64,000 nt of DNA from Lama glama (lineage: Eukaryota): contig CM052816.1 of NCBI GenBank assembly GCA_028534125.1, positions 33,110,001 through 33,174,000 of the forward strand. Reading direction: 5' to 3'. The notes under the pieces were generated by a model that saw only the letters and a program-made list of their open reading frames with translations, searched no databases and was not told the origin of the DNA. A program made the translations under genes and the position numbers. Shown piece by piece: positions 1-56,670 of the stretch (positions are counted from its first letter, which is position 1; every line of letters begins with the position of its first letter).

Positions 1-817
1 CTGCCCCTCCTAGGCTGGGCAGATTTTCTGTAAGTGTCTGGGGTGAGATGACTTGGCTCGGAGCTGCACACGATGAAGGGTGCTACATACACTTTCAACT
101 GTTCCACTATAAAAATGGGGTCTATTTTTAACAAAATCAATTCTGGAACAACACAAAACTCTCCTCATCCTTCTTTTCACTTCGCATTTTGGTTTCTTCA
201 AAAATATGATTTCGGGACACATGAGAAATGAATCAAAGAGGAATTTTCCTCTAAATAAAAACACCAGCTTCCTTATTAACTTAGATTCCAATAATCAGAC
301 ACATTACATGCACCATGCTGCTTCCCCAAAAGGAATTCCCAAAAAGATTTAAACCTGATTCAGCTTGCAAGTGGATTCATTTCTCCAGCCCATTTGATAT
401 GAGAGAAGTAAACGATCCTCAGAGAAAAAGTGTATTTAAATGGAACTTAGCACTAGAGAATTCGGAAGATCCAGTAATTCTTAGAGGAACTGGATGGAGG
501 GAGTACAATGAAACGGTGAATGCAGATTGAACAGTCTTGGCATTTGAGAGCAGATCGCCTGGGACACTCTCCTGGTCCATGTCCTTTCCATAACAGAACG
601 ACACAAGGAGATCCAGTGCTTGCAGAAGCACATCTGCACTGAGGGTGCAAAGAAGCTCCTCTGACCGGGCATGAGATCTCCTGCAGAAAAGCATTCTGAT
701 AAAAAGACTTTCAGAACTTCCAGTCCTCCAGGAAACAAAACAGTTCTGAGGGGACATCCTTTTACTTCAACGTTATATTAAGCTCGACAGCTCCAACTTT
801 GCGGAGGCAGAAATAGA

Positions 818-1800
818 ATCTGAATGCTCTGCTCACTTTACCTGATTTTAGTAACCACAACACATTGTGGGGTCTGCCAGACTGTCTGGGAGCCCAGAAG
901 ACAAAGGCAGCATGAGTGGTACTCCTGCTACCAAGTCCTTTGTGTCCTGACCCAAGGAGGCTGGACTCCCCCATGTTCATGGCAGACCCTTGGGTGCCCC
1001 AGTGGGGGAGTTCTACCATAGGGCAAGATGCTGGTGGCAGTATCCCCTTTCCAGGCTTCTCTGAGCTACACAACTAAGCCATGCTCCCAAGAGGGCACGA
1101 GAGGCAGCTTGTGGGTGCAGAATACTTGATCCTGGGTTTGAAACAACACGGCTGCCTGTACTGCGTTAAATAAGGACACCAATAACCTGGGACGTAGACT
1201 CCAGCCAATCCCAGAGCTGCTGGTGGCAGACAGGCTCAAGTGCTTGCAGGCCCCCAGGAGGCAGAGTAATGGTTAGGTGCAAAGGCTTTGGGACCAGGCT
1301 CCCAAGCTTCAATCTCAGCTGTGTCGCTCACTAGCTTTGTGACTTTGGACAAGCCACTTAACTTTTCTGTCTCTTCTGTCTCATCTGAAAAATGGCGATA
1401 GTTCTGTCTAAGGTTGTGGAGGTGGTGAAGGATTCATCATGTTAATGAATTACCAAGCGCTGAGGATGATGCCATCAGCTCAGTGCCATAGTGTTTGTCT
1501 TCTTTATTAGTGTTACCAACTATAAATATTATCATTTTCCAAGTGAGATATTTTGGGCACCAGCAACACAACATAAAGCTCAAGCCCAAGTTTAGGGCAG
1601 AGCAGAGAAAGAGCCAGGGAGCATAGGGAGAGGGGAACCAAGCCCCTCTGAGAGCTGACCCAATGTCTGTGCCAGGAGACCGGGGTGCAGGGCTGGGAGG
1701 CAGGGCCAGGAAGGTGTTCCCGAGGGCTGGAAACAGTCTGGCAGACCCTGTGATGTGCTGTGGTCACTAAAATTAGGTAAAGTGAGCAGAACGTTCAGAT
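818..1800. repeat. 68-bp long inverted repeat (arms 818-885 and 1733-1800)
   Basis: Ungapped manual alignment of arm 1 to the reverse complement of arm 2 gives 59/68 identical; all 9 differences are transitions. Confidence 0.95.
1262..1510 (+). mobile_element. MIR SINE
   Basis: Core motif ...ctcactagctttgtgactttggacaagccacttaacttttctgt...tcatctgaaaaatgg. Confidence 0.8.
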
Positions 1801-4800
1801 ACGGGACACGGCTCCCCTCTCCTCAGATGAACTTATAATGAAGTGTAAAAAATAAGAAGTCAGAATGTGTACAGTACAAGAAGAGAAATTAGACCCTGAA
1901 ATTAAGTTATATTCACTCTGGCACATTTTTTAAAAATTGGCAAGGAAAGTAGTAAAGGGGGCTCCTAACATGCTCAGCGCCCTGGGGGTACTCATTAAAC
2001 ACTTGCTAATCGACTAAACTTGCCTGTTCAAAGAGAACTTGGAAATGTATATGCCTTCAGGGAATAACTCTAGGAGTACACAATTCACTAAGTATCTTCT
2101 TAACAGTAACGCAGAATACAGTTTATATGTAAGTTAAATATTTAATTGGTATAAATAGACCACATTTTGTCTCTGCTTTTTAATGAGCACAGTTTTGGCC
2201 ACCATGTTTAAAGCTAACTTCACAGAAATTCAGAGGTTTCATACCTCAAAGGTATTTTAATAATATTTGGGTATTTTTATTGACATCATGTACCACATGA
2301 TGGGGAAAGAAACAGGCAGGATCCACGGAAAGCAATTGCTTCTATTGCTCCTGCATCATAACGTTATGAAAATCTTGTTAGTTGAGAAACTGAGTAATAG
2401 AATTGCAAACTAGAAAAACTGATGCCTCTAGATTTAGGAGGTCATAACATTATCCAATCTTATTTCTGCCAAGGAAAATCCAAATAAAGTTCAAATCTAG
2501 ATTAAAATGATAGGTGTCCAATGAGGAACCAGAGAGGGGAAACTCAGAGGCTTCCGGTCTAAAACAAGCAAGGGAATAAGAATCAGGTGTATTTGAGAGA
2601 AAGCACAGGCACACCCAGGGGTTACAAGAGCAATGGTGTCTGAAAAATAAAGGAGGGCTTCCTCACTGATCAGTCTCAGCTCTACTATAATTTCTGACTG
2701 ATTCAGAAACTTCCAAGGCTCTCAAAGCCAAGACAGGCAGGAGTTTTAAGGTGTTGGCTGGATGCAAAATATTGCTGGCAATTTACTTTCTTCTAAATCA
2801 AGAGCAGTGAAAGACAATCAGGGTCGTCTCATGCCTCAAGTATCAAAATTGAATTCTTTTTCAGCAACAGCAGAAAAATAATTTCCATGAATTGAGTATG
2901 TGGAAGAGGGGTAGGTATAAACTAAAGGAGGCATTCCGGGGTGAAGGAAGAAAGTGTGCTTTGTGGATTTTTTCCCTCCTTCAACAATAATGGAGAGTTC
3001 AAATATTTCTGGCTGTTAGACTGACATCAGACAGATTATCAAGAACGCAGCTATATTTTGCTTCCCACATGGCATAAGCAGCAGTCACAGTAACACAGGC
3101 TCAACCTCACCGTTACTTAAATTCAGAAAGCAGGCGATTCAAGAATTACAAAGCTTTGGGGGTGGAGACACCTGGGTAGCTTAGAACATTAAAACGTAGT
3201 AAAATATCGACTTATGTTTCAATGTCTATCACTGCCTACTGATGCAGACACTCTTATATCAGGCTGATGAGCTTTTGGTACTTTTAGAAATGTCTGTAAC
3301 ATTTGGGGGGAAATGTTTGTTTTGTAAACAAAGCAATTATATCTGATATAACTGAAGACTGGGAAGTGAAGAGAAAAAAAGCCACCTACACAATCACTTT
3401 CTACAACTTATTATTAGCATTTTGTAAATTTCATTCCAGTCTTTTCCCTTTTCCTATTTGGCAGTCAAACATGGTAACACACGAGAAAGCTGGTTCTGCA
3501 TTTTATTCTCTGTTCTTAAATCAACTCCTCACTAAACAACAAAAATCACACAGTAACTTACGAAACCAAATTTTGCTCAGAGATTTCTCCCAACTTTAAG
3601 GTTCTGCGGTGGTAGTTGTTTATTTGTTTTCAATTCAAAAACAAAGGCTGTTATTGCTAAGAGTTCAAAAGTACAGACAAAGCCAGGAGATTAGAAAAAA
3701 CTGTCAGCGCATTCAGGAACTCAGGAGATTCCCACCCCCAGCGGGGTGTGGTGAGGACACAGTGCAGCCCTCACCAGGGCTGCCTTGGTCTCAAGGTGAT
3801 GGCACGTGGCACCAGGGAAAGACTCAGGGTCTCAAATTTATAACAAAGTTGTAGTTCCAAAAATTGTTTAGGACTTAAAACACATTTTTCAGGCAAACAG
3901 TACAAGGGCTATTTCTGCAAAGATCTAACTGATCTATGTAGTTTAAAGCAAAGTTCTCAAAGACAAGGTAGTTGTAACGATTCACTGAAGTGAATATTCA
4001 CCTGTTTCTTTCTCACCTTGTCCTTTAACGCCTAGTTTGTGTTTTATAAGTTACATAACATGAATACAGGAGGGAAAGTATTTAATTTCTAAATATACGG
4101 AAATAAGCGATACAAGCTGTGAAAGCGCAAATTATTAAATAGAGAAGTTTGGAGATTAGTTTAAACAGAAACACTCTTGTTTGCTACCATATTCATAGCA
4201 AGATCTCTTTATGAAAATATGTCTCATGTTTCAACTGAGGCAACTCCAGGAATAAACCTGTCGCTGGAACATCTCATGACACTGTGGGTCTCTGTCAGCA
4301 ATAAACTGAACAGTGGGAGCACGGAATCCCAGAAAAGGGGCTCTAAGAGGAGGCAGGCCTTCTACATTTTTCCAGGGGACTTTCATGAAGTAGTGGTTCT
4401 TAATCTCTTTCAGTTCAGCCCCCTCTTCATCGGGTAAGTGGAATGGACCTTCTCCTAACATTTTCAGGGGTCTGACTGATGTACCTGCTGGAACCACTCA
4501 TGGATTCCTGGGACCATGATCCTTGGAAGCAAAATGTGGCCTCAGCCACAACTAAAAAGGACCTCAGTTGTCAAGTCCAGATGAGAATGGGGACTTAAGG
4601 TCCGAAACGTCCAAGAGCAGCACATTTGTGGCAGATTCTCCACTGGGAAATGACTAGTGTGGACGGAGCCTAAATCTGGGATGCTTATCTTAGTCAACCA
4701 CGGTGTAAACACTCATCTGTCACACACACATTCCTCATTTGTCAGATTTCCCATGGCGCACTGCCAGCTCCTCCCTGGGCGAAATCCCAATGCCGAAAAC

Positions 4801-5129
4801 AGAGCCCTGGTTCTGTGCCAGGTGCTGCCAGTTTCTGATCATTACCTGGTCTCCTATTTCCAACTCAGTTTAGCTGATTGATTCTCCACATGGAGCCCAG
4901 GTTGAGCTTTAAGACACAAATCCAATCAGATCATTCATTACATCATTTGTATCCTCCAATGGCTCCTTTCTGCCTACTCTAAGTCCAAATCCTGCTCCTT
5001 TCTGGCTTCCTGTTTTGCAAATTAAATCCTCACAAGTAATTGTACTCTCCAAGTACAAAACAGAGTGATGGGGAGCTGCTGTTACTGCCCACCACCCTGT
5101 TTCTTTCAGGAAAAACTCCTCTCCCCTGT

Positions 5130-5395
5130 GTGGTTGCCAGACGGCTGCCTGAGGAAGGACAGTCATGATACCCCTCTCCCCAGCTAGTGACTGGTCTGGG
5201 GTTGGAACATGACCCACGTGAATCTTCCCACAATTAACAGAAGGGCAGAGAGTAAGACCTGAATATCATGTCTGGGCCTCGGATCTAGCCACGTGTGAGG
5301 TCACTCCTAGACTTGCGAGTTATAAAGCTAGTTTTGTTGTCAGTTTGAGCTCATTTGGAATAGGTTCTCTACATCCAACCAAAATAAACCTAGAA
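5130..5395 (+). mobile_element. Ancient MaLR (MLT1-type) LTR fragment
   Basis: 3'-end-like text ...ggatctagccacgtgtgaggtc...ctagacttgcgagttata...gagctcatttggaataggttctct...caaccaaaa; family assigned by resemblance only. Confidence 0.45.
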
Positions 5396-6734
5396 CTCAG
5401 ACCACACTGAACTGATCTGCCAGTGACAGGTGTGTAACCTGTTTATAAGGCTAGAGGAGTATGTCCAGATCGTTCAACAATATGGGGTGTAAGGACATCA
5501 TGTGATAGATGATGTCCACTCTCTAGCTTAACTATCCTGAACTTCCTTCCTCTGATACGCGTGTTTTATAGCTCAGTGAGGCTTTTTACAGTGAGGATGG
5601 TTTCAATAGAGACTGCTTCAATATCACATTTCCCCTCCTCAGAAAGTCTAATGCTAACTGTAGCAGAGTTTCCAGCCCTCTAGCCTATACTCAACTCAGA
5701 GAAAACGGCAACTTCATTCACACAGTTAGCATACCAGCTGCCACAGAGGAGCCCGTGGGAGTTTGCGTTACAGCCAACAAGAATCTGTGCTCCAGGAACC
5801 AAAGCCTCAGGACCAGAGGAGCTGAGAACCGGACCTCCACTTCACAGACAAGGCAACAACACTTCATGGGGACTGCAGTTCCCATGTGCTCAAGGGTCTC
5901 CAGGTCCAGATTAGACACCCTGGAATGAGAGATGTGCACTTTTCACACAAGCCATCCTCCCCTTGGCCAGTTGCATCTGCACTGGGAATCACAGAACGTT
6001 TTCCCTAAAAGGTACTTCAGGGTCCAGACCCTTATTCACAAAATAAAGTGGTGGGTCCTAGAGAGGGAAACAGCTCAAGTCAGAGCACCACAAATTCGGG
6101 GTGGGGGGAGCCCCTAGTCCCTGCCCCACAACACTGCTTGTCCAGGACACCATGCTGCCTCTAGGACACAAGCCAATGCCCTGCCCGAGTCTCTGGTCAC
6201 CCTACTGACTGGCCGAATCAGAAACTGAGTAACATTGGTAGGTCATTTAGAAATCACTTAGAAATATTTTGAATTTCATATTAATAATAGAGTCTGAATT
6301 ACATGACATGTTGATATAACTGTATAGAAAGTCATCTGACTTCGTCCTTTTTTTTTGAAGGTTAAATGCAGCAGAATGACCACACACCATTCACCCTACT
6401 CACGTCTTCTTTCCAAAGCCATCCAAATGATGGCAAAGCCAAAACAAACAAAAACAAAAAAGCAAACCCAAAACCTACAAAACAAGATGTGGGCAAGAGA
6501 ATAGGAGGGAAGACAGCAGAGGAGGAATTTCAACAAATTCTGGAAAACAAAGCAGAGGGACTCCTGACCTACCTTCCTCAACTCTGCTACAGCCTTCGAA
6601 GAACCTGCAGGGGGACACTGAGAATAAACTGTCCTCACAAAAATCCAAAAAGACTCAGGTTTGCAGACTGCACTGCAGAGGACAGGAGTGAGACAGGAGG
6701 CTGGAAACGAGGAGACTGTTCGAAAGTTAATTTA

Positions 6735-6875
6735 AGGGGGAGGGTATGGCTCAGTGGTAGAGCACGTGCTTAACATGCATAGAGGTCCTGGGTTCAATCC
6801 CCAGTACTGCCATTAAAAAAACAAAAAATAAATAAACCTAATCCTTCCTACCACCAACCCCCCCACACACACACA
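6735..6875 (+). mobile_element. Camelid tRNA-Ala-derived SINE (vic-1 type)
   Basis: ggggagggtatggctcagtggtagagc...ggtcctgggttcaatccccagtac with A and B boxes and an A-rich tail (aaataaaccta...). Degenerate target-site duplication (agttaat). Confidence 0.9.
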
Positions 6876-7479: not shown

Positions 7480-8400
7480 AGACCAATATGCATGGTACAC
7501 CTGGATTCATTCACCACATCCTGGACATCAGCAAGGCATCAACAGATTCTTCCAGGGTATCATTTGAGTTCCTGTTGTAACGGAGCAGGACCTGTGGGGC
7601 CTTCCAGGGTCAGACTTCTCCCTCATATTCTCTGCTAAAGTATCCAGATCACAGTATCTCATGTATATTTCCTGAGTTTTTCAGATGCTTAAAACCACCA
7701 CCAAAGAGAAGAAATTAACTACTTGATGATGGAGAGCTCATGGCCCCCAGACCTTCTGGCACCTAGGGGTTGATAGTGCGGACCGCCCTGTTACCTCCAC
7801 ACCAACCAGTCAGAGAATTGTGCGTGAACTGACCACATACCCTGAGACCCCAACTCCCTTACCTGGCCTTTAAATATGCTTTGCTAAAATTCTTTGGGGA
7901 GTTCAGGGTTTTCTTGGGCATGAGCCACCCCATTCTTCATGCTCGGCCCTGCAATAAACCTTTCTCTGCTCCAAACTCCGATGTTTCAGTTTGGCCTCCT
8001 AGTGCGGCAGGCACATGAACTTGCCTTTAGTAACACCATGTGTCAGAAGAGAGCCAGACTCAAAGACTAAACTTGGGGAAGAGGCCCTCCGTGGTAGTCA
8101 CAAGGCATCCATTCTGGTTTATTCGATACTTATGCAAGATACTGGTAAGTATGTCAACGGTATGGTTCTCCAACCTCCAGGTGACATCCCTCTAGGAAGG
8201 ACAGCCAAAATATATGCTGACAGAGTCAGGATCCTACTGAAATGGAACATGAAATGACAGATAGAATAAAGGACAAAACTGACTGAATCAAAAATTATCT
8301 TACATTCATGTTTTTAAAGGGCTATAAACAGAGGGAGATAAGAACTAGGAAGAATTATTAAGAAATTAAAAACAGAAGACATAACCTTAGGAATCTGAGC
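7480..8400 (+). mobile_element. Degraded CR1/L3 LINE reverse-transcriptase remnant, interrupted by the LTR
   Basis: ctggacatcagcaaggcatc (LDFSKAF-like) left of the LTR and ...ctaggaaggacagcc...tgacagagtcaggatcc right of it, both resembling CR1 RT segments. Confidence 0.45.
7576..8035 (+). mobile_element. ERV solo LTR (about 460 bp)
   Basis: TGTAAC...GTAACA termini, TATA-like tttaaata, AATAAA (about 7953). A second partial copy lies at 30567-30762. Confidence 0.85.
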
Positions 8401-11417: not shown

Positions 11418-11545
11418 TTATGTAATAATCTTTAATGAAAAAGAATATAAAAATGAATATATGTATGTATATGCATGACTGGGACATTGTGCTGTACACC
11501 AGAGATTGACCCACTGTAATTGATTGTATTTCAATTTAAAAAAAG
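11418..11545 (+). mobile_element. L1 3'-end fragment (artiodactyl/camelid type)
   Basis: gaatatatgtatgtatatgcatgactgggacattgtgctgtacaccagag...ttcaattt followed by poly(A). Confidence 0.85.
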
Positions 11546-12937: not shown

Positions 12938-13092
12938 TTTTTTTTGTTTTTAAATTGAAGTATAGTCAGTTATAATGCGTCAATTCCTGGTGTACAGCAT
13001 AATGTTTCAGTCATACATATACATACATATATTCCTTTTCCTATTCTTTTTCATCATAGGTTACTACAAGATATTAAATATAGTTCTCTGCA
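12938..13092 (-). mobile_element. L1 3'-end fragment
   Basis: Poly(T) then ttgaagtatagtcagtt...ctggtgtacagcataatg...ataggttactacaagatatt. Degenerate flanking duplication (ctac..tgttctt). Confidence 0.85.
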
Positions 13093-18599: not shown

Positions 18600-20390
18600 A
18601 TTGCCCCAGGGCTTCTAGACTGAGAAGTAGGACATCTCCTCATCCCACCCTACTGAGGCACGTCCATGGACTAAAGATTTTCCTAAGTGAGAAGAGAGAA
18701 GATTGAGAACTAAATCACAGCAGAGCTTGGGACACATATAGGTGAAGGCAAGAGCGGAGGTAGAAGTTGGTAGGAAGGTGACATTAGAAGTGTAGAAATT
18801 GAGCTATTAGAATAGCTCAGTGGTAAAGTGCATGCTTAGCCTGCATGAGGTCCTGGGTTCGATTCCCCACAACCTCCACTTTAAAAAAAAAAAAAAAAGA
18901 AACCTAATTACCTCCTCTGCCCCGACAAAAAGAAACTCCAAACAAAAGAAGCTTAAAAAAAAAAAAAGTATAGAAACTGAAAGGAGTGTCCGTCCAAAGA
19001 ACAGCCTGGAGAAGAGTGGCATGGCCCAAGCTTCCCTTCCCCAGCCCGTGAGGACAGCACAGGGTCTTCCCCTGGACAGAAGTCAGACACGGACTCTCCA
19101 AAGGGAGCAACTGATCTGCCAGAAGGGACTGGTACCCCCAGTAGGGACCTCTTCTCTGGCACTGAGGGAACCTCAACTTGTCCTGCTTGCTCCGCCTGGA
19201 CACACCCTCACGTGAGACCTGCACCCTCAGTTTCAGAACACAGTCAGCTAGAACCATCAACCAAGTCCTTCATTTGTGAATCTGGGTGAGTAAAGAAGGA
19301 TCATCCGATTTGAGCAAGGCTAAAGGAACAAGACAAAGACTGGCATGAAACAAACAGAACCAATCCCAGAGAAATTAGAAATTCATGAAGCAGAAGAGAA
19401 TTTCAGAGGGGAAAAATCTGAGTATAGTCAAAGATACTAGAAAACACATAATACATACATGAAACAAAAGCCTTATTATGAGAAGGAAAAGAGTACACCA
19501 AAATTAAAATTGGATTTTTGAAGTTAAAAATTTAATAGAAGGGCTGAGATAAAAGGGTGGATGAAATTCCCAGAAAACTGAGCATGGGAGAGGAGGAGAG
19601 AAGACAAAGTTTGATAACATAAGAGTTAATCCAGGAGATCTAATACCAATCTATTGAATTAATAGGAAAAAAACTGGACACCAGAAGACAGTGGAAGTCA
19701 TTAAAGAAGAGATTTCCCAGAGCTGAAGAACACAAGTCTTTAGTTAGAAGCCCCACAAGTGCTGAGCAGAATAAATGAGAAAAGACAGAGTCTCATGAAG
19801 GGTCACAGTATCAAGGAGAAAGAAAACATTCTAAACTTTCAAAGAAAGGTCTACATGAAGGCACAGACTCAGTAACATTGATTGCTGGAAACAAATTCCT
19901 TTCAAATCCTGAGGGAAAATTATTTTGCACTTAGATTTTCATACCCAGCCAAATTAACAGTTAAGTTTGAGGGCAGGTAAGCATAGGTTCAAAGTACACC
20001 TGCCAGACACTCTTACTGAAAAATATCAAGATATATTCCAGAAAAATTAAAAATATGTCTAAGAAAGTGGAAGACAGTAGCTCCAAGAAAAAGTAGAATT
20101 CACCCAAGAATTCAAAAAAAAAAAATTTCACGATGACAGCTTGGTAAGCAAGTCTAGAAAGCAGTTCATAATAAAGTATCTGAAAAAAAATTGTATAATT
20201 AAGGGAGTAAATTATAATGTTCAGAGAAAGAGAACACGTTACTTCTGCTGCTGAGAAAGCAGGCAATTAGAAAGTCCAAGAAGAATGAGGCTGTATGAGA
20301 ACGTGGCAGTCCATACACGAAGCAAACAGAAGTGTGCCATGATCCTAAGCAAACCAACCACACATAAAGTGAGAATCTTACTTATGTGCT
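18600..20390 (+). mobile_element. Old L1/HAL1 5' region and ORF1 remnant
   Basis: A-rich sense strand with ORF1-like text gatttcccagagctgaag and ttcaaatcctgagggaaaattatttt...ttttcatacccagccaaatt; no open frame remains. Confidence 0.65.
18803..18965 (+). mobile_element. Camelid tRNA-Ala-derived SINE with target-site duplication
   Basis: tagctcagtggtaaagtgcatgcttagc...ggttcgattcccc plus A tail. TSD aagtgtagaaattga (18788-18802) / aagtatagaaactga (18966-18980). Confidence 0.92.
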
Positions 20391-30566: not shown

Positions 30567-30762
30567 TGCCAGGTCTTGGGGCTATGTACTCATGATCATC
30601 AATTAGTTCATTTCTTCCCTTTGGTGGCGGTTTTTAGCATCTGAAAAACTCAGGAAATATGCATGAGATATTATGATCTGGGTACCTCACAGAGGAGCTA
30701 GAGCAGAGGATGTGGGGGAGAGCCTGTCCCGGGAAGCCCACATAGGGTCCTGCTCAGTTACA
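30567..30762 (-). mobile_element. Truncated LTR (5' part of about 195 nt), same family as 7576-8035
   Basis: Reverse complement tgtaactgagcaggacc...atatttcctgagtttttcagatgct...accaaagggaagaaat aligns by eye to 7576-7760. Confidence 0.9.
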
Positions 30763-33574
30763 CACCTACTGTCTAATGTAACACTCCCCAAGTTGATGGC
30801 AAAAGAAAGCTTCTCAGTTTGAGAAGTGAGTTTTTCTCAAATCACCCATTATTCTTTGGTTATCTGGGAACGAGTTATAACTGGATTCTAGGATGGTTCC
30901 AAACACTGGGTTGAAGGGGAAAGAAACATCAGCTGAGACGGACCAGCTTAGAGAAGCCAACAATTCTACCCACCGCTATCCTGATCGGTTAGTACTGAAC
31001 ACAAGGACGGGACTATTAACACTGACTGGTGTTATCTGTAAGGAACAGACTTTTTTCTCAAAGATGAGAAAGAAGGTGGAGATGAAGCAAAGGGCACTGA
31101 AGGGACAGACAGAGAATGGCAGCAAAACTTAGAAGCAGTGAAGGAGCAATGGAAACAGCAGGGCTAGGGTGGGCGAGCACTTGACAGAGAAGACAGGGAT
31201 GAGGAAACAAAAGACAGACCAGCTCCACATGCTGGAGGCAGAAGGGCACATACTAATTCTCTGCCTACAAAACCCGTGTCACACCAGCAGGCCAGTTCCC
31301 CTCCTGGAGTCAGCTCTACAGTTTCTCTCCAGGTGGGGACAGGGCCCTTTGACTCCCACAGGCCCTACTACGGGGAACCAGAGGCCAGTGAACTCTCTGC
31401 CATAAGCTTTTGTCAAAGAAAACCTGAAGGATGAAGAACGCTTATGTGGCTACACTCCTCCCTCTCCCATTTTACTACCGCAGTGATAACACATCAAAAA
31501 AGCACTTCCTTCATACCTTTAGAATAATACGGCTTTTTTTTTTCACATTGACAATGAAACAAATTATTAAATTGTGGTAGCTTTCTAAATCTGATTAATG
31601 TTACTCAGGGACTCCCACAAACTACTTGCCATTTACCACACTTGTTAATTAGGAGCTGTAACATCTTTATCTTCCTCAGCCTACAGTCCCAGGCCCAGAG
31701 TGGAGCTTGACTAAAAGCAGGACTCCTGGCTAATACCGTTAATGAGTTTAGCACTGCCAAAATGTCAATGGTTTTTCATTTGGTCAGAAAGGGCCTAATT
31801 TATCTAGTTCAGCTGCCCTCGGTAATTTTCATGGAAATGTCAGAGCAGCAATCAGGAGAAACGAATGGCAATAAAGATGATTACTAGAAGGGTAGCAAGA
31901 ATACCCCACTGACAGATGGCTTTTCTTTTTTACCACGGCAAGATTCAGGTCAGAGATAAGGCAACAGCACAGAGCCCAGTACTAAAGCAGGCCCACATAT
32001 TGTGTCTGACGTACAATTACATTTTGAAATTCTGAAACATGTAAGATATAAGGAGTCTTCACTGTAGGAGGAAGAGCGCTAAAAAAAAAAAAATACTCCG
32101 GGGGAGAGGTGGGACGAGCTGTTTAACAAAATTTGCTTCCATTCATGACAAATTTTATGGCGCTAAATAAGGGCTCCTGAAGGAGCTGGATCTAGATTGT
32201 GTTCAGCACTTCTGCACGAAAAGAACTTGCTTATGACTTATTCAAGGCAAAATAAAAATAGATCCCTTCTTTGGCAACTTCAACTTATGCCTTGCTACAT
32301 AAGCGTAAGTAGTAACGAGTGTAATCATTCTAAGAGTCAGCAACGGATAACCTGTTCACCTTCAGGTCATGGGTTTAAGGATGACCAAATGTGGGAGGCA
32401 CTCACTTAAGCTCAGTGCAACAGCATTGGGGGAGAAAGCCCACGCATGTGTGTGGATTTGGGGGGCTGCACTCGGCCTTTCACTGCCAGAATTCCAAAAT
32501 TTACTATGGAGACACATCCAGGGCACTCAAATTATTATGAAAAAGGAAAGGCAAAATGAAGAATAAAGAAAATCAAGCACTCAGCCTGGTTGCCAACAGC
32601 TGACCTCATAAGGAATAAAAATCCCAGGCTTTCACAACGTCAATAGGTTATCCTCTTTGCACCCACCTCAGTCTCTCCCCACTCCCTTTATCCCCCCTAC
32701 TGGGATAGAGAAATGCTTCCTGTTTTCTGTATCTTTTCAACTTACTAGAGGAAGGAGAGTATCTGGTAACAAGGCCTCTGCTTAGAAAGTTGAGAAATGG
32801 AAATTCCACACAACCTGAGTTGCATCTCTAACTTCCACCCATGTTAACTTCCAAATAGCCCCGTATACCTTTGCTCTTTAAAGGTGTTAATAGGTGTTAA
32901 AAACCTCTGACAGAAAGGAAACGATTTCATTTTCCCACTTAAATTTCCCTGCAAAAAAACAAATATACAAATAAGAAATTGGCACATATGGGCTTAATTT
33001 AATCTCTCCTTGAGGAAAATTCATAGTTTGCTAAGGATAAAAATATTTGCATCATTAAATTTTCTGTCAATGAGTCTAGCTTAACTAAGCAGATTAACCA
33101 AGTCATTGACTGCAGCAGTGCTACTTAGAACCGGACCCTTAAATGATCACGTATGTTTACTTTAAGATAATGGAAATATTTTTATCTAGGGGGCCTTTGT
33201 TTACATTTCCAAGCACGGACCCAAGCAAATAATGCTGCTGATTCAGATGCTCTGGATTCCCAGGGCCACAAGAAACGTCCTGCTTTTTCTTGATTCAGTT
33301 TCCCCACCACTAACAATGGCATGGTTATCTCTTCTACCAACTACCCAGAACATCAGATTCACTAATTATTAAGTAAGTGCTAAGCACTGTGTACACAGTG
33401 AAGGTCTCCAGATTCATATCTTAAACAGAAGACAGACAAAAACACAGGCAAGAGACTTAGCTTATAAAGAAAAGAGAAAAAGGTTTCTTATGATCAGTCA
33501 GCCGTACTTTAGTAAAAACTTTCCTACAGTGAAACTAGAAGCAAAATTTAGTATCAACATCAGAAATAAGGAAT

Positions 33575-38394: not shown

Positions 38395-39360
38395 GGTAGC
38401 ACATTTCCACTTAGATGACCAACAGGCATCTCAAACCCAGCATGCCAAAGTCCAGACTCATCGTTCCCCACAAACTGGATTGTACGTGGCATCTCCAGTC
38501 TCTCACATCAGCATGATCCTCTCAGAAACCTGGATATCACACCCCCAATGCCTCTCCTTCCCAGCAACCTATCAACCCACCCACCAATCCCAGGTCTTAT
38601 AGTTCTAGAGATCATGACTACACAGTCCAAGAAGGCTGCAGGCACTGTGCAAACAGCAGGGACTTCTGGAATCAGATCGAAGTTTAAACTTGGCCCTGCC
38701 ACCCACTAGATGACCTTGGGCAAGACCGTTAATCTGCCTGGGCTTCCAAACGTCCCTAAAGCTAGGACCTATGTCATGGGACTGTTGCGAGGTTTAAATA
38801 AAGTCATACATTCAAAAGGGAATGTTGAGGGCCGGGTGCTATCCAATGGTGAACAACAGGCACTCTGGTAGGAAATACAAGTCCGCAGGCCTGTACAGGG
38901 TATTAAGTGCTGTAGTGCAGAAATACCCAATGCTACGGGAGCACAGGGGAGAGGATGGAATCTAGACCAGAGTGGGACTGTCGGGGAAGCTTTTCAAAGG
39001 GACTAACACTTTAAGTCCTATGAGATGGACAGGAGGTACATAAGCAAAGGTGGAGGATACGGATAGTGCACTAGTGGAGGAACAGCAAATGTGAAATTCT
39101 AAGGTCAAGAGACAACCAGGCACCTTGAAGGTATTGTACATAGTTGAGCTGGCTGGAGACTAGAATGTGAGGGTGAGAAGTCACCAGACAGTGGGGAGGG
39201 AAACTGCTCAGTGGTAGAGTGCATGCTTAAAATGCGAAGGTCCTGGGTTCAATCCCCAGCACCTCCATTTAAAAAAAAAAAAAAGTGACAGACATAGCTG
39301 GACAGTTCAACAAGGGCTAAGGGGTTGGGGACCCTGAAATAAAGGATTTTATGCAGGTAA
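38395..39360. mobile_element. Cluster of L2 (+), MIR (+) and L2 (-) fragments
   Basis: L2 caggcatctcaaacccagcatgccaaa; MIR ctgccacccactagatgaccttgggcaag; antisense L2 ggaggaacagcaaatgtgaaa. Confidence 0.65.
39193..39284 (+). mobile_element. Camelid tRNA-Ala-derived SINE (short-tail form)
   Basis: ggggaggg...gctcagtggtagagtgcatgctt...ggtcctgggttcaatccccagcacctcca plus poly(A). TSD-like aagtcaccagaca / aagtgacagaca. Confidence 0.9.
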
Positions 39361-41999
39361 ATATACTGTATGTAACCGCCTTCATTTTTACTACTATACA
39401 GGCTCGTTTATGCTGTCCAGAAATTTACAATCGAGTGTCTTTTTTTCTTAAGCTAGCCTCCCCCTCCTATTAATTATTAATATGTTAAGAGTATTTTAAA
39501 AAAGCAATTTAAAAAATTTCCTCAATGTACTTGGTGAATTACAGGCAGAGATGTAAGGGGAAAACCCTATCAGTCTTTACCTGGGCTCTTTGACAGTCGG
39601 AAGAGCAATGAAAAGGGTTAATTTCTTAACTAAAGTCATAAACCCCGAACTCTCCACAGCAGTGATCACATTAACTTCTCAAGTGCACCTGCTGTGCTAA
39701 CTAGTATTTACCAGACACCACATCAGCCTCAGCATTTCCTAGCATAACATGCTCCACCCTTCCCATCCAGCCCACTAATGCGCCAGCAGTTCGGGACACT
39801 CAGTCACCCAAGGCATCTCTGGCTGATCGCTTTGATGCAAACATAGTTCTACCACTGAGTACTGTGGCAGTCACCCTTTGAACGAAACCTACCCAGTAAC
39901 CCAGACCTCCCTGAAATTCCTTATTAGCTCCATAACGCAACCTATGAACACTGATATTTTTAAAAACCTAAATTAGTGAAATGAATTGAAATCTTTATCA
40001 TTCCCACCAGATTAAGAATCGTTCATCTAAGAAAAGCAATTAACATATTTCTGTCACTTGCAAATGAATGCTGAAGCTTAACTGCAGGGAATTCCCTCCC
40101 TTTGTAAGGATGTCTTTCTGCATACAGGGCACAATTACATCCAGAATTATCTCCACGCCCTCATCCTTAAATACTACATATTCATTTCTATTTTGGAAAG
40201 ATTAGGCAAGAGGCATTAAATTACCATTGTCACTAATGCTAACAATTTCATTTTAATCAGAGTATCAATGAACAGTAATTTCTAACAGGATGTTTTAAGT
40301 ATCAGAACTATTATTGTACACCAGAGTTTTGTTGTTCTCAAGGTAACATGTTTTAAAAAGCACAGATTTAGACTTTAATATGCATAGAGGGAACATTTAC
40401 AAAATGAAACAGAAGTAATTTTGCACCATATTGCTTCGCTTGAAGTATTCCAACAAAATATCTACCCTGCAATCCTTCAGATTCATCATTTCTAACAAAT
40501 AACACAATCTAATTCCAGCTCCTGGAGCTACTCTCACCATCTCAGGATTAGGTAGGACCTGCTTCCAAACAGCCTCCACTCTGATCTCCCCTCTTCCCAA
40601 GAGAGAACACCCAGAGCCAGGCTCAGATATCTCCAAGAGATTCTGCAAAGCCCCCCAACTGGAGTCATGCTGGATGGGCTCCTCTGGCCCAATGTCGGCT
40701 TTCAGGAGATGGAGGGTAGGGGTGACCCAGATCCAGCTCCAGGGAATGGGGACCTGGGTATGGAGAGTGGGGCTCGCACTACTTGTCGGTACAAAAGTAG
40801 TTGACCTTTGTGTACTTTTTCTGTTAGCCTTTTCTTCTTACTTCTTTTCACCATTTCTAACTGTCATATGTCCTGCCAACCAAGCGGCAATAATGTGCCC
40901 TGAGAATAATGCACTTCTCCAGCGGTTGGCCACTCCCCCATCAGGCAGGTTTCTGAGACAGAGCAATCTGTGAACGGATCGGATGATAGACCATTAAGAG
41001 CTAAGTCAGAGGAGCAAGTAGTGTTGTCAGACAGCATGGGGTACTGGACACAGCATTAACTGAGAGGTGACAGAGCCCTTCTAGAGACTGGCATGAGTCT
41101 CTCTGCTAGAGGACAGGAGGGAAGAAGAGGAAGAATACTATTACACAAGACCTGTGCTTCTCCTTTTATCTGTTGGGTATTCAAATCGATCTGGGTTGGA
41201 GACACAGACTTGTCAGGCAACAGCCTACAGATGGTAGGCTGAGCCACGGGAATGAGTAGCACCTCTGTAGGAGCATTCTCAGAGATAAGCCTGGGTCCAA
41301 AGGGTCCAAAACTTAACAACCAAAAAGCGAGATGATAGAGCCCAGGGTGTAGGTCTATGACTCTTGTTCGTTTCCTTCCCACCACCCTCAGGTGTACACT
41401 CCTCAGCCAATGATCAAACTGTCTAACAGCTTCAAAACCTGAGAGGGAATATTTCATCACTTCTCTCCTTCCGACCTTTAGACAAAACCTCAATCAAGAA
41501 GCTTTAGAAAAATTCTTTCAAATGGAAAAGCTAGCTGTCAACAGAAATAAAGATGGCCTTCACTGCTGGGGGAATATCCTGAGTCCTGTCAAACCCATTT
41601 ACCAAGGCCCCCGCTCTCCTTCAGCAGGTGAACCTCCCCCATCTGTTCCTGCTCTTCCAGGCAAAGCTCCTATGGCACTGCTGCCACCTTCTTACAGTAA
41701 ACAAATCACAACTTGTAAGGGAATCCACAAAGTGTACATCACTGATAAAACTGTATCTCCATGGAAGAAACAGTTATGCAGCACATGAACATGGACTGTT
41801 TCCCTGCAATGTGTCCTTATTCTGGATGTGGATCGTGGCCTGCCATGCCTTCCCTCCCCCACGCTGCGCCGTCAGCTACGATGGTTGTCCTGAGGTCAGG
41901 TTCTGGGCACTAAGAGGGACTTGAGGCACTATAGCTGGGACAAAATTAGGACAAATTACATAAAAACAATAAACAAAATAAAATGTAAAAAGCAATTAA

Positions 42000-42120
42000 T
42001 GAAAACGAATATATGTATGTTCATGTATGACTGAAGCATTATGCTGTATACCAGAAACTGACACAACATTGTAAATTGACTATACTTCAATAAAAAATAA
42101 AAAATATATATACAAAAAAC
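42000..42120 (+). mobile_element. Young L1 3'-end fragment
   Basis: gaaaacgaatatatgtatgttcatgtatgactgaagcattatgctg...ctatacttcaataaaaaa. Confidence 0.88.
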
Positions 42121-42191
42121 CCCACACACCATTACTATTGTCACTTAGCTCATTAACATTCTGGCTCTGCAAATCCAAAAAAGGAAATACT

Positions 42192-42338
42192 GGGGGGAGG
42201 GTATAGCTAGTGGTAGAGTACGTGAGTAGCATGCACAAGGTCCTGGGTTCAATCCGCAGTACCTCCACTAAAATAAATAAATAAAAACCTAATTACCTCC
42301 CCCAGCCAAAAATTTTTTTTAAAAATTAAAATTAAAAA
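42192..42338 (+). mobile_element. Camelid tRNA-Ala-derived SINE with perfect target-site duplication
   Basis: ggggagggtatagctagtggtagag...ggttcaatcc. TSD aaaaaaggaaatac at 42177-42190 and 42339-42352. Confidence 0.93.
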
Positions 42339-42574
42339 AAAAAAGGAAATACCTTTCTTTTCTAAGATTTGCCAGTATTTGGAAGAACATTTTCCCAGAT
42401 AATAAGCTTTTGGCATGAAGGTCCAGCAAACCTCAGCTGGCTGTGAAACTCTTAGGATTCCTGCATACTGTCTTCATGACAAGTTTGTCTCCACTTCAGA
42501 ACTTCTTTTAAATTACTTTAGTGCCCATTTACAACCACAGCCACTAATGTTCTGTTTGTAGTAGCAAAATAATA

Positions 42575-43949: not shown

Positions 43950-44893
43950 TGATATCAAAAACACACAGAGAACTCCCACAGTGCAGCAACAAAAAAAATC
44001 CTAAACAACTTGATTAAAAGATGGATATGGACTTGAATAGACATTTCTCCAAAGAGGATGACAGGGCCCAATAAGCACATGAAAAGATGCTCAACATCAG
44101 TAATCAACAGGGAAATGCAAACAGAAACCACAATTAGATACCACTTCATATCCACTATGATGACTGTTATTTAAAAAGCAAAATAAAACAGAAAAGAAAT
44201 GTTGGCAAGGATGTGGAGAAGTTGGAAGCTCTGTGCACAGCTGGTGGGAATGAGCTAAAGTGGAGCAGTCCCTATGGAAAATAGGACAGCGACCCCCTCC
44301 AAAATTAAACATGGAATTACCACATGCTCCAGCTATCCCACTTCTGGGTATGAACCCAAAAGAAGTGAAAGCAGGGACTCACACAGGTATTTGCACACCC
44401 ATATGCATCACAGAATTATTTACAATAGTCAAAAAGTGGAGGCCACCTGAGTATCAATTGACAAATGAATGGACACAAAAAATATATGATATATACATAC
44501 AGCAGGTTATAATGTCTTAAAACGGAAATTCTGACACATGCTACAATATCAATGAAACTTGAAGACACAATGCTAAGGGAAAGAAACCAGTCACCAAAGG
44601 ACAAATATTTTACAATTACACTCACATTGGGTATCAAGATTAGTCCAATTTGTAGAGGGACAGGAAGTGGAACCGTGGTTGCCAGGGGAGGAGGGAAATG
44701 GGGAGTTAGTGTTCAACAGGTGCACAGTTTCAGTTGGGGAAGATGAAAAAGTGCTGGAGATGGATGGTGATGATGGCTGCACCACAGTGTAGGTGAACTT
44801 AACGCCACAGATCTGTATACTGAAAAATGGCTAAAATGGTTAAATATAAATAACTCTGTGTTATGTATATTTTACCATAATTTTTTTAAAAAA
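43950..44893 (+). mobile_element. L1MA/L1MB-type LINE: ORF2 C-terminal remnant and 3' UTR
   Basis: gacttgaatagacatttctccaaagagga...cacatgaaaagatgctcaacatc. ORF 44260-44520 contains PAIPLLGMNPKE. Typical 3' UTR end tgtatattttacca. Confidence 0.92.
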
Positions 44894-45880
44894 GAGGATA
44901 GAAGGGTTAAACAAGTGCTGTACCATCAACACACAATAGCTGGCAAACCAGCCAGACAGCGATCATCTCATTACTCCCCTGAAATAGAACACAACTGCTC
45001 TTTTGGATTTTTTTTTTACTTGCTAGGCCCTGAAAATCTTGGCCAATAAAAACCCATGGAGCAGGCCAATAAAAACCCATGGAGCAGAAACTATTACAAT
45101 GCACCCAAAAATCATAGAGCTAAAAATAAATTCTAATGATTTTAATAGTGTGACTAGTAGCAATGTCCTATGTAGATAAGAATACTGAAGAATTAGACTT
45201 CCACCTTTTAAAATAATTACAGACTATTTATTACAAAACACGTATCTTAAAACAAATCCTGTAATGCAGAAACTGAGGGTGTTGAGGCAGAAGAGGAAAA
45301 ATTATCCATGGGAGTTAAGGAAAAAGATCTGCGTTCTACACTTTCCCTTCTGTCACAAGCCAGCTTCCTTCAAGCCTCAGTTTCCTCATCAGTCATGCAA
45401 ATAAATGGTTAGGATCAAATAAACCACAAATCGAAAAACAGTTTAATAGGCCACCCAATAGAAGCATCTCCTCATCCAATTCCAGGCTTACGTGGCAACT
45501 TTCTCGTCTTCATCTGACTGCCAAATAGCTTTTCAACAGGAAAAAAATGTCAGCATTCCAGACTCCTTGGAGCTATCTCGGCTATAAATCAATAAGCTGA
45601 TATGAAAGTTCGTGAAAATAAAGTCAGCAATTCTAAATAGTGGAAGGAAATTGGTCCAAGTGCTCACGGAAAGCAGAGTCTCATTTTCCTAATTCAGAAC
45701 CCACCTATATTCCACATCATCAGCATCCATCAACAATGAACTATCCATCAAGGGAACGTAGTTTTCAAATCATTCCTGGCCATTGTCCATACCAACTCAG
45801 CTCTTTAAACTACTCCTTTTAAAGGGAAAATACATTCAGACTCTGATGATATCCATAAATAATTATACGGCTTTTTAAGC

Positions 45881-46027
45881 TTTTTTTTTTTTTTAATTCT
45901 TTTTTTTGGGGAGGGTGGGTAATTATGTTTGCTTGCTTGTTTATTTATTTAATGGAGGTACTGGGGATTGAACCGAGGACCTCGTGCATGCTAAGCATGC
46001 ACTCTACCACTGAGCTATAACCTCCTC
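45881..46027 (-). mobile_element. Camelid tRNA-Ala-derived SINE
   Basis: Reverse complement gaggaggttatagctcagtggtagagtgcatgcttagcatgcacgaggtcctcggttcaatccccagtacctcca plus A-rich tail. Confidence 0.93.
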
Positions 46028-46070
46028 TGATGATTATGGTTTATTTTCAATGCATATAACAATTATTTCT

Positions 46071-48275
46071 CTTTTTTAAACATTTTTTATTGAGTTATAG
46101 TCATTTTACAATGTTGTGTCAAATTCCAGTGTAGAGCACAATTTTTCAGTTATACATGAACATACATATATTCATTGTCACATTTTTTTCACTGTGGGCA
46201 ACCACAAAACCTTATATATTTCCCTGTGCTATACAGTATAATCTTGTTTATCTATTCTACATATGCCTGTCAGTATCCACAAATTTTGAACTCCTGGTCT
46301 ATCCCTTCCCACCCCTCACCCCCTTTGCAACCACAAGTTTGTATTCTATGTCTATGAGTCTGCTTCTGTTTTGTATTTGTTTTTCTTTCTCTTTCTGGCT
46401 TATTTCACTTAGAATGACACTCTCCAGCAACATCCATGTTGCTGCAAACGGCATTATGTTGTTCGTCTTTACGGCTGAATAATATTCCATTGCATAAGTA
46501 TACCACATCTTCTTTATCCAGTCATCTGTTGAGGGACATTTAGGCTGTTTCCATGTTTTGGCTATTGTAAATAGTGCTGCTATGAACATTGGGGTGCAGG
46601 TGTCATTTTGAAGTAGGGTTCCTTCTGGATATATGCCCAGGAGCAGGATTCCTGGATCATATGGTAAGTCTATTCCTAGTTTTTTGAGGAATCTCGATAC
46701 TTTTTTCCACAGTGGCTCCACCAAACTGCATTCCCACCAGCAGTGTAGGAGGGTTCCCCTTTCTCCACAGCCTCTCCAGCATTTGTCATTTGTGGACTTT
46801 TGAGTGATGGCCATTCTGACTGGTGTGAGGTGATACCTCATCGTAGTTTTGATTTGTATTTCACTGATAATTGGTGATATTAAGCATTTTTTCATGTGCC
46901 TATTGATCATTTGTATTTCTTCCTTGGAGAATTGCTTGTTTAGGTCTTTTGTCCATTTTTGGATTGGGTTGTTTGCTTTTTTCTTATTAAGTCTTATTAG
47001 CTGCTTATATATTCCAGAGATCAAGCCTTTGTTGGTTTCATTTGCAAAAATGTTCTCCCATTCCATAGGTTGTTGTTTTGTTTTATTTATAGTTTCTTTT
47101 GCTGTGCAGAAGCTTGTAAGTTTAATTAGGTCTCATTTGTTTATTCTTGCTTTGATTTCTATTGTTTGGGTAGACTGCCCTAGGAGAACATTTTTGAGAT
47201 GTTAGATGTTTTGCCTATATTTTCTTCCAGGAGGTTTATTGTATCTCATCTTATCTTTAAGTCTTTGATCCATTTTGAGTTTATTTTTGTGTATGGTGTA
47301 AGGGAGTCTTCTAGCTTCATTGACTTACATAGAGCTGTCCAGTTTTCCCAACACCATGTGCTGAAGAGACTGTCTTTATTCCATTGTATATTCTTGCCTC
47401 CTTTGTCCAAGATTAGTTGACCAAAAGTTTGTGGGTTCATTTCTGGGGTAGCTCTATTCTGTTCCATTGGTCTGTATGTCTGTTTCTGTACCAATACCAT
47501 GCTGTCTTGATTACTATAGCTCTATAGTATTGTCTGAAGTCTTGGAGAGTTATTCCTCCAGCCTCTTTCTTTCTCTTCAATAATGCTTTGGCAATTCTAG
47601 GTCTTTTGTGCTTCCATATAAATTTTATTATGATTTGTTCTAGTTCTGTGAAATATGTCCTGGGTAATTTGATAGGGATTGCACTAAATCTGTAGATTGC
47701 CTTGGGCAGTGTGACCATTTTAACAATATTGATTCTTCCAATCCAGGAGCATGGGATATCTTTCCTTTTTTTAAAGTCTTCTTTAACTTCCTTCATCAAT
47801 GGTTTATAGTTTTCTGTGCATAATTCTTTCACCTACTTGGTTAGATTTATTCCTAGGTATTTTATTACTTTGGGTGCTATTTTAAAGGGGATTGTTTCTT
47901 TACTTTCTTTTTTTGTTGATTCATCATTAGTGTAAAGAAATGCAACTGATTTTTGAACGTTAATCTTGTGACCTACTACCTTGCTGAATTCTTCAATCAG
48001 CTCTAGTAGTTTTTGTGTGGACCTTTTAGGGTTTTCTATATATAGTAACATGTCATACGCATATAGTGACACTTTTACCTCATCTTTTCCAATTTGGATC
48101 CCTTTTATTTCTCTCTCTTGCCTGATTGCTGTGCCTAGGACTTTCAAGATTATGTTGAATAGCAGTGGTGATAGTGGGCAGCCTTGTCCTGTCCCAGTGG
48201 GAAGCTTTTGAGTTTTTCACTGTTGAGTACTATGCTGGCTGTAGGTTTGTCATATATAGCTTTTATTATGTTGAG
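46071..48275 (-). mobile_element. Young 5'-truncated L1 (about 2.2 kb) with disrupted ORF2 (RT C-terminal part and cysteine-rich domain) and TSD
   Basis: ORFs 47833-48147, 47437-47832, 47246-47500 and 46299-47066 are consecutive L1 ORF2 peptides ([32 protein letters not shown]). TSD ataacaattatttct (46056-46070) / ataataattatttct (48276-48290). Confidence 0.97.
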
Positions 48276-56390: not shown

Positions 56391-56447
56391 CTCACTCAGC
56401 TCGGCCGAGGAGTCGTTTCCATACTTCATGGCAACTCCAGAATTCAT
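56391..56447 (-). CDS. MCC: First coding exon of the short isoform of MCC (mutated in colorectal cancers); 19 codons, phase-0 splice donor
   Basis: Reverse complement reads ATG AAT TCT GGA GTT GCC ATG AAG TAT GGA AAC GAC TCC TCG GCC GAG CTG AGT GAG | gtaaga = MNSGVAMKYGNDSSAELSE, which I recognise as the N-terminus of the short MCC protein. It ends at a canonical donor and lies in a CpG island. Too short to appear in the ORF track. Confidence 0.95.
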
Positions 56448-56670
56448 GACTGCACTTTTCAGAGCCGAGCTCCTCCTCCTCCAGGTCTCGGAGCTTACGA
56501 GTTGGGTTTAACAGGCTGGATATCCACTGCTTGGTCCCTTCTGGCACATTTTAGTCTAGACAGCCATTTTCACCCAGGACAGTGGTGAAGCCCAAACGAA
56601 GGATGCAGGCACTCCTCAAAGGAACACGGCTGGCTCACGTTTCACGGACGAGCCATTGCTGCAGGAGGCT
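56448..56670 (-). other. MCC: 5' UTR of MCC short-isoform exon 1; the upstream boundary (TSS) is uncertain and may lie further right
   Basis: Contiguous with the ATG. The minus strand CCTCCTGCAGCAATGGCTCGTCCGTGAAAC...CTCTGAAAAGTGCAGTCATG resembles the human MCC leader as I recall it (not aligned). Confidence 0.8.

What the first reader, a model, noticed from the sequence alone, without database searches (positions are those of the whole stretch)
818..1800. Unexplained 68-bp inverted repeat, differing only by transitions, flanking an 847-bp spacer
Seen: 818-885 matches the reverse complement of 1733-1800 at 59/68 positions without gaps. All 9 differences are transitions, several with a CpG-decay pattern (cattgtgg vs catcacag). 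I recognise no repeat family in the arms and see no TSD. Inference: in the minus-strand MCC pre-mRNA the arms would form a 68-bp duplex with 3 G-U wobbles and 6 A-C mismatches, a known ADAR-favoured configuration. The stem would also bury a donor-like CAG|GTAAAG (843-835). Alternative origins are an inverted duplication at the breakpoints of a small inversion, or the long TIRs of an unannotated DNA transposon.
Basis: partly seen in the sequence, partly recalled or inferred. Interest (0 to 1): 0.7.

Follow-up and report, generated by a model that had tools for sequence, protein, structure and literature searches.

The report
Old inverted duplication in MCC intron
A 68-base piece of DNA in a long intron of the MCC gene of a camel-family mammal was once copied backwards about 850 bases away, and the two copies have since drifted apart as ordinary intron DNA does; nothing seen shows that the RNA stem they could form has a job.

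Summary
The repeat is real: 818-885 and 1733-1800 match at 59 of 68 positions, ungapped, with 9 transitions and sharp ends, far above chance. It lies about 54.6 kb into the first intron of the short MCC isoform of a camelid-type genome. The best reading is a one-off local inverted duplication (template switch or repair), probably within the camelid lineage, decaying neutrally. Five of the 9 differences are CpG decay. The '3 G-U + 6 A-C' pattern is a by-product of transitions: the opposite strand gets 6 G-U + 3 A-C and an equally stable duplex. Four of the A-C pairs sit in one 4x4 loop. The spacer holds an old MIR-like relic, no TSD and no transposase, so transposon TIRs are unlikely. Whether the spacer was inverted, whether the duplex is edited, and the genome-wide copy number of the arm remain untested. 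One curiosity: the left arm covers a whole 44-nt frameshifting pseudo-exon (885-842), but equally strong pseudo-exons occur about every 7 kb on both strands. Scan notes report similar copying-slip hairpins, one in this genome. Ordinary.

The parts
818..885 (.). Left arm of the inverted repeat (68 nt)
   Evidence: only self and partner hit in the window with nhmmer
1733..1800 (.). Right arm (68 nt), 59 of 68 complementary to the left arm; keeps one CpG at 1792-1793
886..1732 (.). 847-nt spacer of ordinary intron DNA, non-coding; orientation relative to the ancestor unknown
   Evidence: four overlapping stop-free frames of 76-108 aa hit no Pfam family; skew test inconclusive
1265..1530 (+). MIR-like SINE relic inside the spacer (family name recalled from the sequence)
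   Evidence: weak matches (E 0.012-0.9) to five other places in the window at 61-75% identity
842..885 (-). 44-nt pseudo-exon inside the left arm: acceptor AG at 887-886 after a pyrimidine tract and a branch-point-like CTCAT, donor GT at 841-840; would shift the MCC frame
   Evidence: approximate splice scores 8.9 (acceptor) and 8.4 (donor); MCC exon 1 is 57 coding nt, phase 0; use in RNA not tested
56391..56447 (-). Coding part of the first exon of the short MCC isoform; places the repeat about 54.6 kb into the following intron
   Evidence: translation MNSGVAMKYGNDSSAELSE and donor score 10.4; gene name recalled

Best explanation
One replication or repair event copied a 68-nt piece of the MCC intron backwards to a site about 850 nt away. 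The polymerase switched template, copied the opposite strand and returned. The arms were identical at birth (inferred) and have since collected neutral substitutions, mostly CpG decay. Age is roughly 5-45 My depending on rate and counting, comparable to the camelid tRNA-SINE copies nearby. The arms can pair in nascent MCC pre-mRNA and may be edited at background level like any inverted intronic pair, with no selected role. Shown: the repeat, its sharp ends, the CpG pattern, single pair in 64 kb, the old spacer. Inferred: the mechanism, the age, neutrality. Which arm is the copy is unknown. An un-inverted spacer (about 0.48) is favoured over an inverted one (about 0.27) only by base rates.
For: Ungapped, sharply bounded, no third copy in the window. 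5 of 9 differences at CpG; 4 of 62 non-CpG positions differ. Arm identity of 87% lies in the 82-91% range of six pairs among four tRNA-SINE copies (a fifth copy aligned over under 20 nt and is not counted). The spacer relic is only 61-75% like its relatives, so the spacer is older than the arms. No strand preference in duplex energy. Opposite-strand non-tandem duplications are a recurring local rearrangement: 27 of 166 in one human cell line (21 plain, 6 with deletion), against one inversion with deletion and duplication (PMC5829575 Table 2 and passages). The majority template-switch types in apes generate single inverted repeats (PMC7954356, section 8 part 2). Two more inverted pairs within 3 kb, both TE-like, exist in the same intron, with larger predicted duplexes.
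Against: No outgroup sequence was seen, so the single-copy ancestral state is not shown. Nine transitions of 9 is somewhat more than expected: P = 0.003 at the 53% transition share of 19 other, partly overlapping repeat pairs in the window (246 of 462 substitutions), 0.03 at a recalled share of 0.68, and 0.05-0.27 for the four non-CpG changes alone. All five CpG decays read TG on the + strand (two-sided P about 0.06). The jump of about 850 nt is longer than the tens to hundreds of nt modelled for short-range switches (PMC7954356 passage). No microhomology supports the un-inverted model. No repeat library or host genome was available to exclude two pieces of an unrecognised repeat.
Confidence: 0.75

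Rival explanations
1. Variant of the best explanation: the 847-nt spacer was inverted in the same event, by a staggered break with fill-in or a template switch that copied spacer plus arm backwards. The arm is then the duplicated breakpoint and the left arm is the original.
For: Under this model the new join at 885/886 has a 2-nt microhomology (GT), and the join at 1800/1801 shows a loose CAGA match; the mirror model and the un-inverted model show none. Spacer base skew is -0.04 against an intron mean of +0.12 (3 of 63 windows as low; likelihood ratio 1.7). In Drosophila 17 of 29 inversions carry inverted duplications at breakpoints, the shortest 46 bp, often from one side only (PMC1885836 passages).
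Against: 2 nt of microhomology arises by chance 1 time in 16, and several models were tried. The skew signal comes from the MIR-like part (-0.24); the other two spacer parts (+0.07, +0.11) look like the flanks. The pattern was 1 of 166 in the human survey.
Confidence: 0.27
2. The arms are two independent fragments, or the terminal inverted repeats, of an interspersed repeat not recognised here.
For: Two inverted, similarly diverged TE-like pairs lie within 3 kb elsewhere in the window. A TA target duplication is one substitution away (AA left, TA right). No genome-wide count could be made.
Against: No flanking direct repeat longer than 4 nt. The spacer carries a relic much older than the arms. 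No Pfam hit in four spacer-overlapping frames. No third copy in 64 kb. Two independent insertions would rarely share both ends to the base. 0 of 117 metagenome loci with a 16-nt arm core extended beyond chance (best 21 of 52 arm positions), a weak test. PMC8605555 (passage) cites the earlier view that mammalian DNA transposons were last active at least 40 My ago.
Confidence: 0.13
3. Whatever its origin, the pair is kept by selection as an RNA duplex in MCC pre-mRNA: an ADAR substrate, or a mask over the 44-nt pseudo-exon and its donor.
For: Stable predicted duplex (-106 kcal/mol) that pairs donor positions -2 to +6 with P of 0.94 or more. The left arm begins on the minus strand at the first base of the pseudo-exon, whose inclusion would shift the frame. 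All differences are transitions and there are no indels.
Against: 6 of 9 changes break pairing on the transcribed strand and only 3 on the other strand; selection for pairing predicts the reverse (binomial P 0.25, so weak). Equally strong pseudo-exons involve 8 distinct donors on the minus and 10 on the plus strand of the window, with no duplex needed. The arm edge is soft by 2 nt. Most editing sites lie in lineage-specific inverted repeats and only 59 of about 1.4 million human sites are conserved with mouse (PMC4053846 passages). No Rfam family matches.
Confidence: 0.08

Closest known systems
Non-tandem duplication, opposite strand (Frith and Khan, PMC5829575) and template-switch mutation types 1-4-3-2 / 3-2-1-4 (four-point model; Walker et al., PMC7954356)
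   Same: A short stretch is present twice nearby in opposite orientation with sharp ends and no repeat family; gives a single inverted repeat.
   Different: Those events were polarised against an ancestor; this one was not. It is old (13% diverged), and the 850-nt jump lies beyond the range modelled for short-range switches.
Inversions with inverted duplications at breakpoints from staggered breaks (Ranz et al., PMC1885836); microinversions flanked by inverted repeats (PMC8755829)
   Same: Non-repetitive inverted duplicate flanking a segment; size (68 nt) and identity (87%) fall within the Drosophila range (shortest 46 bp, mean 88%).
   Different: Inversion of the spacer is not shown. The Drosophila cases are chromosome-scale; the ape microinversions are 17-33 nt long.
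ADAR substrates formed by inverted intronic repeats (Alu-type, non-conserved) versus conserved editing sites with an ECS (PMC4053846)
   Same: A long imperfect duplex under 1 kb apart in an intron of an expressed gene could be edited.
   Different: No editing was observed here, no real exon is paired, and conservation is not shown; the arms are not a recognised SINE pair.

Membership tests
Template-switch / local inverted duplication | Reverse-complement copy of nearby, non-repetitive sequence with sharp ends | tested here: met
   (single pair within the 64-kb window only)
Template-switch / local inverted duplication | Single copy in the ancestral or outgroup sequence | not testable with these tools
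   no host genome held; no mammalian orthologue found
Template-switch / local inverted duplication | Microhomology at the switch points | tested here: inconclusive
   2 nt under one of three models, none under the others
Staggered-break inversion | Spacer inverted relative to an outgroup | not testable with these tools
   only an indirect skew test, likelihood ratio 1.7
DNA transposon or MITE | Terminal inverted repeats | tested here: met
   68-nt arms in form
DNA transposon or MITE | Target-site duplication | tested here: not met
   longest shared k-mer across the flanks is 4 nt and not abutting; a TA duplication is one substitution away
DNA transposon or MITE | Transposase or element-derived interior | tested here: not met
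   0 Pfam families in four frames of 76-108 aa; interior holds an older MIR-like relic
DNA transposon or MITE | Multiple copies in the genome | not testable with these tools
   no third copy in 64 kb; genome not held
Functional ADAR editing substrate | Long RNA duplex on the transcribed strand | tested here: met
   predicted only: 60 of 68 positions P>0.9
Functional ADAR editing substrate | A-to-G changes in RNA reads | not tested
   one search gave no result
Functional ADAR editing substrate | Isolated A-C mismatches in favourable neighbour context (preference recalled: 5' U over C) | tested here: not met
   4 of 6 A-C pairs lie in one 4x4 loop; 1 of 6 has a 5' U
Functional ADAR editing substrate | Conservation of both arms across mammals | not testable with these tools
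   no orthologue obtained
Known RNA family (Rfam 15) | Match at gathering score | tested here: not met
   2 matches in the window, both tRNA-like SINE heads at 6740 and 45953

The most novel reading that the evidence does not exclude
The right arm is a lineage-specific antisense copy of a 44-nt poison pseudo-exon and its donor. It arose by one copying slip and was kept because it pairs with the pseudo-exon in nascent RNA and stops a frameshifting inclusion in MCC: a built-in splice-blocking antisense element born from a template switch. In the inverted-spacer version, the same event would both create the acceptor-exon join and hide it.
Probability: 0.05. Interest if true: 0.6.

Novelty: new member of a known kind. 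Interest (0 to 1): 0.15.

Why it matters
As read here it matters little: it is one more fossil of a known mutational process, usable at most as a lineage marker for camelids once outgroups are aligned. It also shows that an all-transition, A-C-rich duplex follows from CpG decay and is no sign of ADAR tuning. It would matter if the arm were shown to silence the pseudo-exon, because that would be a directly testable case of a splice-blocking RNA structure arising in one mutational step.

Tried and rejected
Own-genome search: no genome is held, so no copy number. Run search with 400-2300: 24 rows, 14 DNA rows hold 0.97-1.00 of 188 sampled words, under four organism labels and seven studies; 13 of the 14 are flagged as possible sources, and the one unflagged row holds 0.97. 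Three RNA rows hold 0.30-0.33 and three guessed-RNA rows of a fifth organism 0.13-0.15; four rows hold none. None was laid (one search gave no result), so these shares are not used as evidence of expression, editing or orientation. Assembly artefact rejected: the arms differ at 13% with a CpG pattern. RNA-templated origin of the right arm from a spliced MCC transcript rejected: the bases before it do not match the end of MCC exon 1. Skew test for inversion inconclusive. A crude exon finder showed no convincing coding exon between the repeat and MCC exon 1 (it did not list the real first exon either, so it is weak). Rfam and Pfam negative. Literature: 7 searches. The MCC + intron + inverted repeat search gave 2 papers, neither about this locus by title and abstract start. 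The pseudoexon + duplex search gave 21 papers, 15 listed, none on a duplication-born duplex masking a pseudo-exon by title. S1 Table of PMC7954356 (event-type proportions) was not read and may bear on the inverted versus un-inverted odds. Earlier scan notes: none near this place or like this sequence.

Full report
Observation. The inverted repeat is as described. Positions 818-885 match the reverse complement of 1733-1800 at 59 of 68 bases without gaps, 847 nt apart, and similarity falls to background at both ends. It scores 83.3 bits, against a maximum of 38.3 in 100 Markov simulations of bases 1-6000. All 9 differences are transitions. Five fit decay of three inferred CpGs: TG against CG at 825, and TGTG against CACA at 866-869. 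The arm has no third copy in the window.

Setting. The window is mammalian-type DNA (CpG observed/expected 0.25). It holds short tRNA-headed SINEs that I take from memory to be the camelid vic-1 type; SINEBase names vic-1 as a simple SINE of camels (PMC3531059 passages), but I did not compare sequences. A minus-strand coding exon at 56447-56391 translates to MNSGVAMKYGNDSSAELSE and ends in a strong donor. I recall this as the first exon of the short MCC isoform. The repeat thus lies about 54.6 kb into the next intron, and the minus strand is the pre-mRNA sense. A run search found 14 DNA rows with 0.97-1.00 of the sampled words under four organism labels, but 13 are flagged as possible sources and none was laid, so I do not lean on them.

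The spacer. It is non-coding: four overlapping stop-free frames of 76-108 aa hit no Pfam family. About 1265-1530 is a MIR-like relic (name recalled) that matches five other places in the window weakly, at 61-75% identity. MIRs spread about 130 My ago (PMC8605555 passage). The arms are 87% alike, within the 82-91% seen among six pairs of the window's tRNA-SINE copies. So the arms are far younger than the DNA between them. Non-CpG divergence of 4 in 62 gives 16 My (4-41) at an assumed 2e-9 per site per year and 6 My (2-17) at the 5e-9 implied by PMC8605555; counting all 9 changes gives 13-44 My over the rates tried. This fits an event within the camelid lineage, but it is an inference.

Transposon reading. 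No direct repeat longer than 4 nt flanks the arms, though a TA duplication is one substitution away. With an old host relic inside and no transposase, TIRs are unlikely. Two independent fragments of a hidden repeat would rarely share both ends exactly. I could not count copies genome-wide. A metagenome scan with a 16-nt core gave 117 chance loci, none extending; this is a weak test. I give this rival 0.13.

RNA reading. The duplex is predicted on the minus strand; 60 of 68 positions pair in register with P>0.9. The 3 G-U + 6 A-C count is right but follows from the chemistry: each transition gives G-U on one strand and A-C on the other. The plus strand has 6 G-U + 3 A-C and the same energy (-105.9 vs -106.0 kcal/mol). 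Five of the six A-C pairs are CpG-decay products with a 5' C neighbour, and four form one 4x4 loop. Only the A at 1774 sits in a UAA context (the ADAR preferences are recalled). Selection for pairing in the pre-mRNA would favour G-U on the minus strand, and the trend is opposite, though not significantly (P 0.25). The same intron has two more inverted pairs within 3 kb, at 11421/12947 and 44069/46499, with predicted duplexes of -124 and -332 kcal/mol. Background editing would therefore be unremarkable. Most known editing sites lie in lineage-specific inverted repeats and very few are conserved (PMC4053846 passages). Against full neutrality: 9 of 9 transitions has P = 0.003 at the window's own 53% share (246 of 462 substitutions in 19 partly overlapping pairs, probably lowered by A-rich tails and old pairs), about 0.03 at a recalled 0.68, and 0.05-0.27 for the four non-CpG changes. 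All five CpG decays read TG on the + strand. These are mild oddities. Editing in reads is untested.

On the minus strand the left arm starts right after a pyrimidine tract and CAG, so 885-842 is a complete 44-nt pseudo-exon ending at the donor-like site. MCC exon 1 is phase 0, so inclusion would shift the frame. The duplex would cover the exon and 24 nt beyond. With approximate recalled splice matrices, 28 of 3735 minus-strand GT sites and 103 of 4513 AG sites score as well. Pseudo-exons with both sites this strong involve 8 donors on the minus strand and 10 on the non-transcribed plus strand. The arm edge is also soft by 2 nt. The coincidence was noticed after the fact and is modest. It defines the most novel reading (0.05).

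Mechanism. The simplest origin is one template switch or repair event that copied 68 nt in reverse. In apes the majority switch types give single inverted repeats (PMC7954356, passages and section 8 part 2; its S1 Table not read). In one human cell line, opposite-strand non-tandem duplications were 27 of 166 local rearrangements, and inversion with deletion and duplication occurred once (PMC5829575 passages and Table 2). The alternative with an inverted spacer matches the staggered-break model (17 of 29 Drosophila inversions; PMC1885836 passages). It gets slight support from a 2-nt microhomology at 885/886 and a skew likelihood ratio of 1.7 that comes from the MIR part alone. Ape microinversions of 17-33 nt are flanked by inverted repeats of 3-75 nt (PMC8755829 passages), a smaller scale. 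Without an outgroup the two forms cannot be separated; I put about 0.48 on an un-inverted and 0.27 on an inverted spacer.

Earlier scan notes. One note from the same genome describes a perfect 46-bp hairpin in an ABLIM3 intron read as a template-switch product, and one from a fungus a decaying single-copy inverted repeat. They are unchecked AI notes. They agree with the reading I had stated before the first look-up and are not counted as support.

Verdict. A real but ordinary fossil of a local inverted duplication; new member of a known kind; interest 0.15. Open: orientation of the spacer, copy number, conservation, editing and pseudo-exon use.

Noticed in passing
window 56300-57000: CpG island (o/e 0.69, GC 58%) over the promoter and first exon of the short MCC isoform on the minus strand.
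   Followed up: partly
window 50580-51050: A second CpG-rich, GC-rich patch (o/e 0.59 in 50001-51000) about 5.5 kb inside the intron, with no repeat match in the window; could be an enhancer or another promoter.
   Followed up: no
window 6736-6842, 18812-18931, 39193-39284, 42193-42312, 45922-46025: Five tRNA-headed SINE copies of camelid type (name vic-1 recalled); four of them 82-91% alike in the head; two reach the Rfam tRNA score.
   Followed up: partly
window 11421-11542 / 12947-13068 and 44069-44493 / 46499-46905: Two TE-like inverted pairs (L1 3'-end-like by recall) 1.4 and 2.0 kb apart in the same intron; predicted duplexes larger than the finding's.
   Followed up: partly
window 7576-7754 / 30571-30762: Inverted pair of about 190 nt, 78% alike, 22.8 kb apart; probably two copies of a short LTR-type or DNA repeat; family not identified.
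   Followed up: no
window 45850-46260 and 41950-42400: At two places an L1 3'-end-like piece and a tRNA-SINE lie side by side within about 300 nt, and the two composites align in inverted orientation (67% over 355 nt, 3.5 kb apart).
   Followed up: no
window 31042-31164 (+): A 41-aa stop-free frame rich in E, D, K and Q in a purine-rich stretch; no Pfam match, likely chance.
   Followed up: yes
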